NCBI GenBank assembly: GCA_009914755.4
Contig: CP086569.2
Location: 28,640,001 to 28,704,000, forward strand
Direction: 5' to 3'
Origin: the human T2T-CHM13v2.0 reference genome, Homo sapiens
Length of the DNA: 64,000 nt
The notes under the pieces were generated by a model that ran no database searches, had not been told where the DNA came from, and saw only the letters and a list, made by a program, of their open reading frames with translations. Made by a program: the position numbers and the translations under genes. Positions 20,071-46,575 of this stretch are shown one piece after another (positions within the stretch are counted from its first letter, which is position 1; each line of letters begins with the position of its first letter).

Positions 20071-20080
20071 ATATATCATA
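20061..20080. other. Abrupt DYZ1-like to DYZ2-like satellite junction (left)
   Basis: ...ggaatgcaatggaaaggaatggaatcgaat|atatcatatatagaatatattatacgg. HSat3 phase corresponds to ~870 of the HOR; the DYZ2-like repeat starts at the atatatcatatatag phase. Confidence 0.85.
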
Positions 20081-21429
20081 TATAGAATATATTATACGGT
20101 TAATATACGTATTAAATATAAATTATACATTATATATACTATATATAATATATCTGTTATATATAATACCCATTATACATAATATATATATTATGTCTAT
20201 ATTATATATAGTATAAAACAACATATAATAATATATAATTGTATATATAAAATGTGACATATAATATATATTATATTTTATGACATATGTAATATATATT
20301 ATATATTATGTATAATACGTTGTATGTATAATACCTATATTAATTATATATTATATGACTATGTTATTAATTACATGTCACATATACATATATTATATAT
20401 TTTACATGGAATATACCGGTTACATATAATATATACTATGTTACCTATAATGTATAATTTATTACATGTAATATAATGAATGTCATATATTATATATAAT
20501 TTATAATATTCAATATGTGGAATGTGATATATATAACATATAATATATGATATATGATATACAGTATATGATATATAACATACAATTTATGATACCTAAT
20601 ATATATGGTATACAATATATATTTTATGAAAAGTATTCTATATGTTTTATATTCTGTTATATATAACTATTTGAAATTATATATAACTGTATAATATTTT
20701 ATGTAAATATGTAATATAATATATATAACCATATAATATATTATATATAACTATATATTATGGTATATATACTTTTATAACATAATTTACATAAAATATC
20801 ATAATATAATATATATTATATTATTTCATATTACATAATATATATTACATATCACCAAATATAAGTAACATACATAATATTAAAATATAGTTTATATTAT
20901 GTTATATTAAATATCATATATATCATGTATCATATGTTCTATAATATATGTTATACATTATATAATATGTATGTTGTCTATTATGTGATATATATAACTA
21001 TATATATAATTATATTATTATACATATAACTACATAAACATGTAATTCTATATATTTTCATTTATAATATATAGAATTATATAATCATATATAATTATTT
21101 ATATTCTATAAAAAATTATATCATTATATAAATTATAATATATAAAAATTATATTATGTACTAAAAATATATATATTATATATCATATATGATATAGTAC
21201 CTTTGTTATATATCATATTACATATAAAGGTATATTATGTTATCTATAGTTATATAATTTCATATATAAGATGTATAATATGTATTATATATTATATAAG
21301 TTATGCAATTTATATAGTATATATAAGATGACACAGGATAAATATTTTATACTAAGACATATAAAATATATGAGGTTATATGTTACATATAAGGCATAGC
21401 ACATAAACTGTAATATATATCATATATAA

Positions 21430-21727
21430 TTTTTTTTTAGACAGACTCTTGTCCTGTTGCACAGGGTGGAGTACAATGTCGCCATCTTTGCTCACTGCAA
21501 CATCTGCCTCACGGCTCCAAACGATTGTCCTCCCTCAGCCTCCCAGGTAGCTGGGACTACACCACACTGGGACTACACCATCTGCCACCATGCCTAGCTA
21601 ATTTTTTGGATTTTTAGTAGTGACAGCCTTTCACTGTATTGGCCAGGATGGCCTTGATCTCTTCACCTTGTGATCCCCTTGCCTTGGCCTCCAAATTTGC
21701 TGGGATTACAGGCCTGAGCCAAGATCC
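21430..21727 (-). mobile_element. Alu fragment (antisense, 5'-truncated by ~12-25 bp, CpG-decayed) embedded in DYZ2-like unit
   Basis: The + strand reads a T-run followed by agacag..ctgttgcacagggtggagtac...gcctcccaggtagctgggactaca...ggcctgagccaagatcc. This is the reverse complement of the Alu right arm, A-rich linker and left arm (GGCTCA(C/G)GCCTGTAATCCCAGCA). Confidence 0.85.
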
Positions 21728-22290
21728 ATATTTTTTTAAATGAAAAAAAATTTGAAAGGTACTCTGCTTGGTACAATAATCAAATGTATAAACTGAGGAA
21801 TAAATCATAACCATGAAACATACTTATAACTGCATATGGAAAATACAGAGGATAATTTTTTAAATAACATATTTTGAAAGCCTTAACTAGTAATTTGAAG
21901 AGCTGACATTTGAAAGGCCAGTATGAATATACCTTCAAAGCAGCAACACAGGATCCCCATGAGAAAAAGCAAACTCAGGGAAAATAAAACCACAAAGGTT
22001 CAATCTCTTCTGACCTTTGAAAGACACAGCACAGACAGTGGTCCTTAGGACGAAGAGCAGGAGACCCCTAATTCCGTCACCATGGCGATAGGGCATAAAC
22101 ATTGCTGGGTGAGGGCACAATCCACATTGTGAGGTCCAACTGCTGCCAGGAAGACAGGAGTGCTTTTACATAGACCGAAAGGTCATTGAAGGCTCAGAGT
22201 TTTGTTTCAAGAACTGAATCCCAAGCCCACACGTTATTATGCTGCGCTTCTTAAAACAAGTTATGAGATGGGAAAAAGGGCACCCACAAA
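21728..22290. repeat. ~570 bp mixed-complexity (non-Alu, non-AT) segment of the DYZ2-like unit; recurs once per unit in both arms; origin undetermined
   Basis: ccatatttttttaaatgaaaaaaaatttgaaaggtactctgcttggtac...caccatggcgatagggcataaacattgctgggtgagggcacaatccacattgtgaggtccaactgctgccaggaagacagg...gggaaaaagggcacccacaaacatacgtatac. It carries the recurring 61-aa and 68-aa artefact ORFs. Confidence 0.7.
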
Positions 22291-43467: not shown

Positions 43468-45566
43468 TTATATATGATATATATTATATGTTATGTAATA
43501 TGCTTTATATGTAACATATAACCTCATATATTTCATACGTCATAGTATATAATATTTACCCTGTGTCATCTCATATATACTATATACGTTACATAACATA
43601 TATAATATGGAATACATAGTATACATCTTATAAAGGAAAATATATAATTATTGATAACATAATACATAGTTATATGTAACATGATATATAACATATGTAC
43701 TGTATCACATATGATATATAATATATTTATTTTTAGTTCATATTATAATTTATACATATTATAATTTATATAATGATATAATTTTTTATACAATATAAAT
43801 ACTTATATATGACAATATAATTATATATATTATAAATGAAAATATATAGTATTACATGTTTTTGTAGTTATATGTATAATAACATAATTGTATATATAGT
43901 TATATATATCACATAACAGACAACATACATATTATATAATGTATAATATATATTATGATATATATGATATTTAATATATCATAATATAATCTATATTTTA
44001 ATATTATATATGTAACTTATATTGTGTGATATATAATATATATTATGTAATATAAAATAATATAATAAATATTATATTATGATATTTTATGTAAATTATG
44101 TAATAAAAATATATATATAACATAATATATAGTTATATATAATGTATTACATAGTTATATATATTATATTACATATTTACATAAAGTATTATACAGTTGT
44201 ATATAATTTCAAATAGGTATATATAACAGAATGTAAAACATATATAATACATATCATAAAATATATATTGTATACCTTATATATTATGTATCATATATTG
44301 TATGTTATACATCTTATATTGTATATCATATATCATATATTTTATGTTATATATATCACATTGCACATATTGTATATTATATATAATATATGACATTCAT
44401 TATATTATATGTAATAAATTATACATTACAGGTAACATAGTATATATTATATGTAACCAGTATATTCTATGTAAAATATATAATATATAACATATATGAC
44501 ATGTAATTAATAGCATATTCATATAATATATATTTAATATAGGTATTATACATACAACGTATTATATATAATATATAATATATATTATATATGTCATAAA
44601 ATATAAAATATATTATATGTCATATATTATATATACAATTATATATTATTATATGTTGTTTTATACTATATATAACATAGACATTATATATATATTATAT
44701 ATAATGTATATTATATATAACAGATATATTATATATATTATATATAATGTATATTTATATTTAATACCTATATTAACCATATAATATATTCTATATATGA
44801 TATATTATATATATTATATATGTCATATGGTATAATATATAATATATATCATATTGTATAAATATAATCTTGTATAATATCAATTATTATATTATATACA
44901 ATATATATAATATAAGATGCAGGATGTAAAACAATATTATACATAAGTTATATATATTATATATATGATACTGCATATTATTATATACATAATGTATACG
45001 TATGTTTGTGGGTGCCCTATTTCCCATCTGATAACTTGTTTTAAGAAGCGTAGCTTAATAACTTGTGGGCTAGAGATGCAGTTTTTGAAACAAAACTCTG
45101 AGCCTTCAATGACCTTTCGGTCTATGTAAAAGCACTCCTGTCTTCCTGGCAGCAGTTGGACCTCACAATGTGGATTGTGCCCTCACCCAGCAATGTTTAT
45201 GCCCTATCGCCATGGTGACGGAATTAGGGGTCTCCTGCTCTTCGTCCTAAGGACCACTGTCTGTGCTGTGTCTTTCAAAGGTCAGAAGAGATTGAACCGT
45301 TGTGGTTTTATTTTCCCTGAGTTTCATTTTTCTCATGGGGAACCTGTGTTGCTGCTTTGAAGCTATATTCATACTGGCCTTTCAAATGCCAACTCTTCAA
45401 ATTACTAGTTAAGGCTTTCAAAATATGTTATTTAAAAAATTATCCTCTGTATTTTCCATATGCAGTTATAAGTATGTTTCATGGTTATGTTTTATTCCTC
45501 AGTTTATACATTTGATTATTGTACCAAGCAGAGTACTTTTGAAATTTTTTTTCATTTAAAAAATAT

Positions 45567-45864
45567 TTATCTTGGCTCAGGCCTGTAATCCCAGCAAATT
45601 TGGAGGCCAAGGGAAGGGGATCACAAGGTGAAGAGATCAAGACCATCTTGGCCAATACAGTGAAACGCTGTCACAACTAAAAATACAAAAAATTAGCTAG
45701 GCACGGTGGCAGCTGGTGTAGTCCCAGTGTGGTGTAGACCCAGCTACCTGGGAGGCTGAGGGAGGACAGTCGCTTGGACCCGTGAGGCAGATGTCGCAGT
45801 GAGCAAAGATGGCGCCATTGCACTCCACCCTGTGCAACAGGTCAAGAATCTGCCTACAAAAAAA
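45567..45864 (+). mobile_element. Alu fragment (sense) in inverted DYZ2-like unit, diverged sub-family
   Basis: Same Alu region. Start motif mutated (atatttatcttggctcagg); end caggtcaagaatctgcctacaaaaaaa. Confidence 0.8.
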
Positions 45865-46552
45865 TTATATATGATATATATTATATGTTATGTAATATGC
45901 TTTATATGTAACATATAACCTCATATATTTTATACGTCATAGTGTATAATATTTACCCTGTGTCATCTTATATATACTATATAGGTTACATAACATATAT
46001 AATATGGAATACATAGTATATATGTTATAAAGAAAATATATAATTATATATAACATAATATATAGTTATATGTAATATGATATATGGCATATGTACTGTA
46101 TCATTTATGATATATAATATATATATTTTTAGTACATATTATAATTTATATATATTATAATTTATATAATGATATAATTTTTATAGAATATAAATAATTA
46201 TATATGATTATATAATTATATATATTATAAATGAAAATATATAGAATTACATGTTTATGTAGTTATATGTATAATAATATAATTATATATAGTTATATAT
46301 ATCACGTAACAGACAACATACATATTATATAATGTATAATATATCTTATACAATATATGATACATTATATATATGATATTTAATATATCATAATATAATC
46401 TATATTTTAATATTAAAGATGAAACTTATATTGTGTGATATATAATATATATTATGTAATAGAAAATAATATAATAAATATTCTATTATGATATTTTATG
46501 TAAATTGTGTTATAAAACTATATATAACAAAATATATAGTTATATATAATAT

Positions 46553-46575
46553 ATTATATAGTCATTTATTCCTTT
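46553..46575. other. Abrupt DYZ2-like to DYZ1-like (reverse) satellite junction (right)
   Basis: ...aatatattatatagtca|tttattcctttccacacccagcctttccagtc. The DYZ2-like repeat ends at a phase ~660 bp away from that of the left junction. The HSat3 phase equals the reverse complement of ~2255 of the left-array unit. Confidence 0.85.

What the first reader, a model, noticed from the sequence alone, without database searches (positions are those of the whole stretch)
20071..46562. Inverted DYZ2-like arms are similar but not identical, arguing for a real (and not very recent) rearrangement
Left arm 13.7 kb (5.7 units), right arm 12.8 kb (5.3 units). The recurring 61-aa artefact ORF differs between arms (right-arm copy at 35532 has ...IKGLL...TVRAVS...GFILPEF..., not seen in any left-arm copy). 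A perfect fold-back artefact would give exact reverse complements, so this argues for a real rearrangement. It also suggests the inversion predates some intra-array homogenisation. Flanking DYZ1-like arrays are likewise inverted relative to each other and differ by a few percent plus different deletion variants.
Basis: seen in the sequence. Interest (0 to 1): 0.5.

Follow-up and report, generated by a model that had tools for sequence, protein, structure and literature searches.

The report
Known Y-chromosome satellite inversion junction
This is a real point where the human Y chromosome's long-arm satellite DNA flips orientation, and it matches an inversion already described as fixed in nearly all men, so it is genuine but not new.

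Summary
A 26.5-kb DYZ2 (HSat1B) block at 20071-46570 switches strand at 33771/33772. It is flanked by DYZ1 (HSat3) arrays that are also inverted relative to each other. The arms are 13.70 kb and 12.80 kb, and they are 95.0% identical in mirror register. The structure is not a fold-back artefact. The axis is offset by 237 bp, mirror unit pairs are no more alike than any other pair (93.4-96.9%), and the two DYZ1/DYZ2 boundaries sit in different repeat phases. The junction joins an antisense Alu fragment to an orphaned 34-bp Alu 3' end with A-tail. Only 2 bp (TG) of microhomology is shared, which indicates non-homologous joining rather than NAHR. This anatomy matches the published description of the 5' transition of the proximal Yq12 inversion (Hallast et al. 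2023), which a 2026 study found in 80 of 84 assemblies. Units within one arm differ as much as units between arms (about 3%). The tree is star-like, the arms interleave, and there are no fixed differences between arms. Arm divergence therefore reflects old, unhomogenised peripheral units and not time since the inversion. Verdict: already known, low interest.

The parts
1..20070 (+). DYZ1 / HSat3 array, (GGAAT)n on the + strand, units of about 3.53 kb. It includes two units with a 40-bp deletion (from 9184 and 12698) and a truncated unit (12698-14564).
   Evidence: TRF and composition. HaeIII-site spacing of 3534, 3544 and 3514 bp. Unit map.
20071..33771 (+). Left DYZ2 / HSat1B arm with the Alu fragment antisense on the + strand. 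It consists of a 1,359-bp partial unit, five full units (Lc5 to Lc1, starting at 21430, 23849, 26267, 28676, 31087) and a 271-bp Alu head.
   Evidence: Units are 97.5-98.5% identical to the local consensus.
33535..33771 (+). A 237-bp asymmetric spacer. This part of the last left-arm Alu fragment has no mirror partner at the axis.
   Evidence: Position 33772 pairs with 33534 in the inverted alignment.
33772..33773 (.). A 2-bp TG microhomology at the inversion junction. Four unit-private substitutions lie around it, at 33760, 33766, 33771 and 33775.
   Evidence: Three-way comparison of the junction with the five left and five right reference units.
33772..33805 (+). Orphaned Alu 3' end with A-tail (sense orientation, 34 bp). 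This is the first piece of the inverted arm.
   Evidence: It matches the wording 'orphaned Alu A-tail' in the Hallast 2023 supplement.
33772..46570 (-). Right DYZ2 arm, inverted. It consists of the 34-bp Alu piece, five full units (Rc1 to Rc5, with Alu starts on the reverse strand at 36221, 38634, 41053, 43467, 45864) and a 706-bp partial unit.
   Evidence: Sub-threshold Rfam mir-1268 hits in the Alu-homologous segment are on the - strand in the left arm and the + strand in the right arm.
43468..46570 (-). Divergent array-edge units next to the right-hand DYZ1 boundary. Rc5 is 93.6% and the terminal partial unit 92.3% identical to the local consensus.
46571..64000 (-). DYZ1 / HSat3 array, inverted, (CATTC)n on the + strand. 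It contains three 2,625-bp deletion-variant units at about 50272-58153. Most HaeIII sites are lost.

Best explanation
The window comes from human Yq12 heterochromatin. It spans one junction of an old, fixed inversion of DYZ1/DYZ2 satellite blocks. The junction is most probably the 5' transition of the proximal Yq12 inversion described by Hallast et al. 2023. Two non-homologous positions inside the Alu part of two DYZ2 units were joined head to head: phase 271 of one unit and phase 34 of another. Only 2 bp of microhomology is shared. This points to end joining of two breaks, or to a microhomology-primed template switch, and not to homologous recombination. The two arms are different stretches of the same old, peripheral DYZ2 subfamily. 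They are not copies of each other. Their 5% difference is therefore the ordinary unit-to-unit divergence of this unhomogenised block and says nothing about when the inversion happened. The anatomy, junction sequence and unit relationships are shown here. The repair mechanism is inferred, and the identification with the published proximal inversion rests on a verbal description.
For: The satellite identity and the single strand switch come. The junction joins antisense Alu phase 271 to sense Alu phase 34 with a TG overlap and a 237-bp offset. Mirror pairs are not elevated (93.4-96.9%, against 96.0-97.5% for all pairs not involving Rc5), and there is no diagonal in the L x R matrix. Identity along the mirror alignment is flat, with no rise toward the axis. 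The boundaries differ by 653 bp in DYZ2 phase and by about 2,142 or 1,400 bp in DYZ1 phase. Structural variants of DYZ1 are not mirrored. I built a bulk DYZ2 consensus from 32 contaminant loci in public assemblies. At 13 well-covered positions none of the ten units on either arm carries the bulk allele. Each unit is 96.5-97.7% identical to that consensus, and Rc5 is 93.7%. This fits the reported higher divergence of peripheral blocks. In the literature, two Yq12 inversions are called fixed. [quoted passage not shown] Both inversions are present in 80 of 84 assemblies, and 96.2% of units share one orientation.
Against: The match to the published breakpoint is by description only. Table S34 coordinates and a Y reference were not available, so a different or lineage-specific Yq12 inversion cannot be excluded; the 2026 paper, for example, reports nested inversions in three chromosomes. 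The published 3' transition of the proximal inversion is at a DYZ2 AT-rich/DYZ1 intersection. That is not the reciprocal junction a simple two-break inversion predicts from this junction, and the authors themselves allow a complex rearrangement. Both arms end about 13 kb (five full units) from a DYZ1 boundary. That is an odd coincidence for two independent breaks in arrays whose mean length is 354 kb. The junction 23-mer was not found in other public contigs, but this is uninformative for a single-copy site.
Confidence: 0.7

Rival explanations
1. An ancient inverted duplication, formed by a fold-back or a DUP-TRP/INV-DUP-type template switch. A break in the DYZ2 array primed synthesis 237 bp back on the complementary strand, so the right arm began as a mirror copy of the left arm and has since diverged.
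For: There is a short 237-bp spacer and 2-bp microhomology at the axis. The arms are of similar length, each with exactly five full units. Both arms belong to one DYZ2 subfamily, with 13 shared differences from the bulk and no fixed difference between arms. The star-like tree means that unit amplification and arm formation could be nearly simultaneous.
Against: Mirror pairs are no more similar than non-mirror pairs, at any register. Variants shared by neighbouring units, such as the six shared by Rc2-Rc3 and the six shared by Rc4-Rc5, are not mirrored on the other arm. Unit lengths are not mirrored (2414/2411/2409/2418/2419 against 2416/2413/2419/2414/2397). The DYZ1/DYZ2 boundaries and the DYZ1 structural variants differ between sides. 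The outer right-hand units are 92-94% identical to the local consensus, while the outer left-hand pieces are about 98%.
Confidence: 0.1
2. An assembly or sequencing artefact. This would be either a chimeric fold-back read or a misjoin of two arrays in opposite orientation.
For: Yq12 is one of the hardest regions to assemble. Four private substitutions cluster within 16 bp of the junction. No read-level data are available here.
Against: A fold-back chimera gives exact reverse complements about a sharp axis. Here the arms differ at 553 substitutions and 87 gap columns, and the axis is offset by 237 bp. The same junction anatomy is described in 9 of 11 independent assemblies, and the orientation switches are reported in 80 of 84.
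Confidence: 0.04
3. A secondary junction. The original inversion created a longer, more symmetric inverted DYZ2 repeat. A later deletion at its centre, the kind of central deletion that stabilises large palindromes, produced the present asymmetric microhomology junction and trimmed both arms to about 13 kb.
For: This would explain the similar arm lengths, the asymmetric spacer, the 2-bp microhomology, and why the published 3' transition is not the reciprocal of this junction. Central deletion of large mammalian palindromes is established from my own knowledge and was not tested here.
Against: There is no direct evidence in the window. It cannot be distinguished from a primary junction without the ancestral state or the other breakpoint.
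Confidence: 0.15

Closest known systems
Proximal Yq12 inversion, 5' break/transition (Hallast et al. 2023, Fig. 4c, Fig. S40a; bioRxiv 10.1101/2022.12.01.518658)
   Same: The orientation of both DYZ2 and DYZ1 flips. The switch lies inside a DYZ2 unit at the end of its Alu fragment, immediately followed by an orphaned Alu A-tail segment. The units are more diverged than bulk DYZ2, as reported for peripheral blocks.
   Different: Nothing contradictory was found. The paper states that the exact proximal breakpoint 'has not been elucidated'. The base-level reading given here (phase 271 joined to phase 34, TG microhomology, 237-bp offset) is a small refinement. Coordinates could not be compared.
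Distal Yq12 inversion (same paper; about 472 kb in PMC13252187)
   Same: It has the same satellite context, breakpoints in or next to the DYZ2 Alu fragment, and is fixed across lineages.
   Different: Its breakpoints are described as AT-rich repeat | Alu head, and AT-rich repeat | remaining Alu head before HSATI. No orphaned A-tail is mentioned, so this does not fit the junction here.
Y-chromosome palindromes P1-P8 and IR-mediated recurrent inversions (NAHR)
   Same: Large inverted repeats on the human Y with a short spacer.
   Different: The arm identity reported for the repeats flanking those euchromatic inversions reaches 99.97%; its maintenance by arm-to-arm gene conversion is my own knowledge. 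Those inversions toggle by NAHR. Here the arms are 95% identical with no conversion gradient, and the junction is non-homologous.
Fold-back inversions / inverted duplications with short spacers (MMBIR, DUP-TRP/INV-DUP)
   Same: Head-to-head arms, a spacer of a few hundred bp, and 2-bp microhomology.
   Different: The arms are not mirror copies at unit, boundary or flank level.

Membership tests
Human Yq12 DYZ2 (HSat1B) array | A tandem unit of about 2.4 kb made of an AT-rich part, an Alu fragment of about 290 bp, and a more GC-rich HSATI part | tested here: met
   Ten full units of 2397-2419 bp. The anchor segment has the Alu sequence read by eye, recurs once per unit, and gives sub-threshold Rfam mir-1268 hits. 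GC alternates between 19% and 27%.
Human Yq12 DYZ2 (HSat1B) array | Near-identity to independent copies of the satellite | tested here: met
   The 17 contaminant contigs from bacterial assemblies are 96.6-99.0% identical to the window consensus. The 15 metagenome loci range from about 91.6% to 98.2% (one had no alignment at 90% or more and two aligned over under 400 bp), and the shorter complete contigs are about 98%. That these contigs are human is inferred from the T2T-Y contamination analysis.
Human Yq12 DYZ1 (HSat3A6) array | A nested repeat of about 3.5-3.6 kb built from the pentamer GGAAT/CATTC, cut about once per unit by HaeIII | tested here: met
   Pentamer arrays. GGCC spacing of 3534, 3544 and 3514 bp on the left. 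Units are 97-99% identical to the reference unit on the left and 95-96% on the right. The right flank has lost most HaeIII sites.
Proximal Yq12 inversion, 5' transition (Hallast 2023) | The strand switch lies inside a DYZ2 unit at the end of the Alu, immediately upstream of an orphaned Alu A-tail | tested here: met
   Alu at 33501-33771, then the orphan Alu 3' end with A-tail at 33772-33805, compared with the text.
Proximal Yq12 inversion, 5' transition (Hallast 2023) | Located at the centromere-proximal end of Yq12, with an inverted segment of about 614 kb and the coordinates of Table S34 | not testable with these tools
   No human reference or Table S34 was available. The inverted DYZ1 runs off the end of the window.
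Fold-back artefact or recent inverted duplication | Arms are exact or near-exact reverse complements with mirror-paired units | tested here: not met
   Mirror pairs are 96.89, 96.38, 96.72, 96.52 and 93.36% identical, no higher than other pairs. Identity in mirror register is 95.0%.
Fold-back artefact or recent inverted duplication | Flanks and boundaries are symmetric | tested here: not met
   The boundaries differ by 653 bp in DYZ2 phase and by about 2.1 or 1.4 kb in DYZ1 phase. DYZ1 variants differ between the two sides.
NAHR inversion between inverted repeats (P1-P8 type) | The junction lies in homologous register within pre-existing inverted homology | tested here: not met
   Antisense Alu phase 271 is joined to sense Alu phase 34, and only TG is shared.

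The most novel reading that the evidence does not exclude
The so-called proximal Yq12 inversion may not be a simple two-break inversion. This junction could be the relic of a fold-back or template-switch event, or of a later central deletion inside a once larger DYZ2 palindrome. Four observations allow this reading. The junction has a 2-bp microhomology and a 237-bp offset. Both arms have exactly five full units. Both arms belong to a single DYZ2 subfamily. The published 3' transition is not the reciprocal of this junction. If true, the base-level reading here would be the first resolution of a breakpoint that the authors say was not elucidated.
Probability: 0.2. Interest if true: 0.35.

Novelty: already known. 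Interest (0 to 1): 0.15.

Why it matters
The window shows at base level how orientation flips inside the largest heterochromatic block of the human genome. It confirms that such a flip can be told apart from a fold-back assembly error using the sequence alone. It also gives a methodological caution: in a satellite array, the divergence between inverted arms measures how unhomogenised the local units are, not how old the inversion is. The biology is already published, namely two fixed Yq12 flanking inversions whose surroundings are proposed to undergo less unequal crossing-over. The gain here is a small refinement of one junction.

Tried and rejected
1. I searched the junction 23-mer in the bacterial/archaeal genome contigs and in the JGI metagenome contigs, hoping for independent human-contaminant copies. 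There were no hits. This is expected for a single-copy site and is uninformative.

2. Long-range BLAST of the DYZ1 flanks with very permissive gapped extension gave wandering 70-90% alignments because of pentamer slippage. I used it only for boundary phase and replaced it with a unit-anchored comparison.

3. I tried to obtain Table S34 and the Nature version of Hallast et al. The DOI is not held, and the 2026 preprint has no held supplements.

4. NAHR between inverted Alus is rejected because the junction is out of register.

5. Arm-to-arm gene conversion as in Y palindromes is rejected because identity is flat and shows no rise toward the centre.

6. A coding role for the recurring 61-aa ORF is rejected. 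It has no Pfam match, it recurs only as part of the satellite unit, and its variants behave like neutral private substitutions.

7. Dating the inversion from arm divergence is rejected because within-arm and between-arm divergence are equal.
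Full report
**What the window is.** Composition and tandem-repeat scans split the 64 kb into three parts. Positions 1-20070 are a (GGAAT)n-based array with 38-39% GC and strong positive GC skew. Positions 20071-46570 are a very AT-rich block with 19-27% GC. Positions 46571-64000 are the complementary (CATTC)n array with mirrored skew.

The left pentameric array has GGCC (HaeIII) sites 3534, 3544 and 3514 bp apart. The AT-rich block is made of units of about 2.41 kb. Each unit holds a segment of about 290 bp that reads as an Alu fragment. 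That segment also gives sub-threshold Rfam hits to mir-1268, which I know to be an Alu-derived family.

These are the defining features of human Yq12 DYZ1 (HSat3A6) and DYZ2 (HSat1B), as described in the T2T-Y and 43-Y papers.

**Checking the observation.** A self-BLAST of 19-48 kb shows that every direct match lies within 20071-33770 or within 33772-46570. Every inverted match pairs one side with the other. The repeat finder gives 79 inverted pairs, and every pair it lists straddles about 33.77 kb.

I anchored units on the Alu fragment. The left arm is a 1,359-bp partial unit, five full units (Lc5 to Lc1) and a 271-bp Alu head. The right arm, read on the reverse strand, is a 706-bp partial unit, five full units (Rc5 to Rc1) and a 34-bp Alu piece.

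The mirror alignment has 12,210 matches, 553 substitutions and 87 gap columns, which is 95.0% identity.

The 61-aa ORF recurs once per unit on the expected strand. They are private to that unit. Three other right-arm copies are identical to the left-arm copy at 31590, so the ORF does not separate the arms. It has no Pfam match.

The identity matrix of the ten full units, counting substitutions only, is flat:
- Within the left arm: 96.5-97.4%.
- Within the right arm, excluding Rc5: 96.4-97.5%.
- Between the arms: 96.0-97.2%.
- Rc5 against every other unit: 93.0-94.0%.
- Mirror pairs: 96.89, 96.38, 96.72, 96.52 and 93.36%.

Mirror pairs are therefore not elevated, and no shifted diagonal is elevated either.

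Of the variable sites, 365 substitutions are private to one unit and only 51 groups are shared. Most of the shared groups link physical neighbours: Rc2-Rc3 six, Rc4-Rc5 six, and three each for Lc5-Lc4, Lc4-Lc3 and Lc3-Lc2. No site separates all left units from all right units.

The NJ tree is star-like and the arms interleave. The only groupings are Rc1-Rc2-Rc3 at 77% bootstrap and Lc3-Lc4-Lc5 at 44%. The arms also do not form separate clades.

**The junction.** I compared the junction with the five left and five right reference units. The left arm follows the antisense Alu up to ...CCAAGTTTGATG. The right arm starts at TGTACAACAGGACAAGACTCTGTCAAAAAAAAAA, which is the sense-strand 3' end of the Alu with its A-tail. 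Only TG (33772-33773) is shared between the two.

The two joined positions are phase 271 and phase 34 of the unit. The axis is therefore offset, and 33535-33771 (237 bp) has no mirror partner. Because the phases are non-homologous and of opposite orientation, NAHR is excluded. The anatomy fits end joining of two breaks or a microhomology-primed template switch. That mechanism is an inference.

Four unit-private substitutions lie within 16 bp of the junction, at 33760, 33766, 33771 and 33775. A post-hoc Poisson P is about 1e-4 at a 1.5% private rate.

**Not a mirror duplication.** Five lines of evidence argue against one:
- Units show no mirror relationship.
- The two DYZ1-to-DYZ2 boundaries are in different phases. 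DYZ2 starts 1,359 bp before an Alu start on the left and 706 bp before one on the right. The DYZ1 phases differ by about 2,142 or 1,400 bp.
- The outermost right-hand DYZ2 pieces are 92-94% identical to the local consensus, while the outermost left-hand pieces are about 98%.
- The DYZ1 flanks carry different structural variants. The left has a 40-bp deletion in two units and one truncated unit. The right has three 2,625-bp units with a deletion of about 0.9 kb. The flanks are 96.3-96.8% identical between sides. Within a side they range from 96.4-97.2% between the more distant units to 98.1-100% between neighbours.
- Identity along the mirror alignment is flat, with no rise toward the axis. There is thus no sign of palindrome-type gene conversion.

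**Relation of both arms to bulk DYZ2.** Conserved DYZ2 words retrieved 17 contigs from nominally bacterial genome assemblies and 15 metagenome loci. This is the human-satellite contamination that the T2T-Y paper describes.

I built a bulk consensus from these loci at 21-36x coverage. It differs from the window consensus at 26 well-supported positions. At 13 of those, none of the ten units on either arm carries the bulk allele.

Each unit is 96.5-97.7% identical to the bulk consensus, and Rc5 is 93.7%. All ten units cluster together against it. Both arms therefore belong to one diverged local subfamily. This fits the published finding that peripheral Yq12 blocks are older and more diverged, whereas most units are more than 98% identical to consensus.

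**Comparison with what is known.** Hallast et al. 2023 report two inversions within Yq12, one at each end, and refer to them as fixed.

[quoted passage not shown] That is the anatomy at 33501-33805. The distal inversion's breakpoints are described differently.

The Fig. S40 legend adds that for the proximal inversion the exact breakpoint 'has not been elucidated'.

A 2026 study of 84 Yq12 assemblies finds both flanking inversions in 80 of them (proximal about 614 kb, distal about 472 kb). It also finds 96.2% of units in one orientation.

I could not compare coordinates. The identification rests on the description, and I put it at roughly 0.7. I put the broader claim, a real and known Yq12 inversion junction, at about 0.85.

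**Judging the interpretation.** The literature supports 'not very recent'.

An inversion joins two different stretches of array that were never identical, and within-arm divergence equals between-arm divergence. The 5% difference therefore dates the last homogenisation of these units, not the inversion.

As an order-of-magnitude inference only: about 1.0-1.6% private substitutions per unit implies millions of years at any plausible rate. I derived a pedigree-based Yq12 rate of about 1.6-2.5e-7 per bp per generation from the counts, and even that gives roughly 1-2 Myr.

Evidence that homogenisation continued separately in each arm is limited to sharing between neighbours.

**Open points.**
- Both arms end about 13 kb, or five full units, from a DYZ1 boundary.
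- Both arms are of one DYZ2 subfamily.
- The published 3' transition, at a DYZ2 AT-rich/DYZ1 intersection, is not the reciprocal junction predicted from this one.

These points leave room for a complex event or a later central deletion, and the authors also allow a complex rearrangement. I give these readings low probability.

**Verdict.** The feature is already known, and interest is low.

Noticed in passing
window 33760-33775: Four substitutions private to this copy (33760 C>G, 33766 A>G, 33771 C>A, 33775 G>A) cluster within 16 bp around the inversion junction. About 0.24 are expected at a 1.5% private rate. This is compatible with error-prone repair synthesis at the join, but the test is post hoc.
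   Followed up: partly
window 28676-33500 (units Lc2, Lc1) and 43468-45864 (Rc5): Lc1 carries 11, Rc5 carries 8 and Lc2 carries 4 of the 26 bulk-type DYZ2 alleles that the other units lack. This explains the cross-arm shared variants between Lc1 and Rc5. They could be retained ancestral states or conversion tracts from bulk-type units.
   Followed up: partly
window 20071-46570: Each arm contains exactly five full DYZ2 units, and both arms end about 13 kb from a DYZ1 boundary. The published mean DYZ2 array length is 354 kb. This is unexplained if the two breaks were independent.
   Followed up: partly
window 50272-58153: There are three consecutive 2,625-bp DYZ1 units with a deletion of about 0.9 kb, joining roughly phase 2069 to phase 2900. 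Two of them (52896 and 55521) are 100% identical over 2,060 bp, which indicates a very recent local duplication. The size and make-up recall the '2.7-kbp repeat' of the Yq11/Yq12 transition zone. That resemblance was not tested.
   Followed up: partly
window 46571-64000: The right-hand DYZ1 array has only two GGCC (HaeIII) sites in 17.4 kb, whereas the left array has about one per unit. The classical 3.56-kb HaeIII ladder would not be produced from this side.
   Followed up: no
window 9184-14564: The left DYZ1 array has two units with the same 40-bp deletion (phase 762 to 803). One unit is truncated at phase 1917 and is followed by a restart at phase 295.
   Followed up: no
L006 5897-6920 (NZ_HF570958.1, Nostocoides japonicum T1-X7, 5.16-Mb scaffold): A 1,024-bp human DYZ2 fragment at about 40% GC sits between two 100-N gaps inside a bacterial RefSeq scaffold that is 65-78% GC. 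This is human contamination scaffolded into a genome. Sixteen other short 'bacterial' contigs (L001-L017) are also pure DYZ2.
   Followed up: partly
window 31191-31257 (-), 33605-33671 (-), 36051-36117 (+): Sub-threshold Rfam hits to mir-1268 (34-37 bits against a gathering score of 83) fall in the Alu part of DYZ2 units. They are most likely just Alu homology and not miRNA genes.
   Followed up: no
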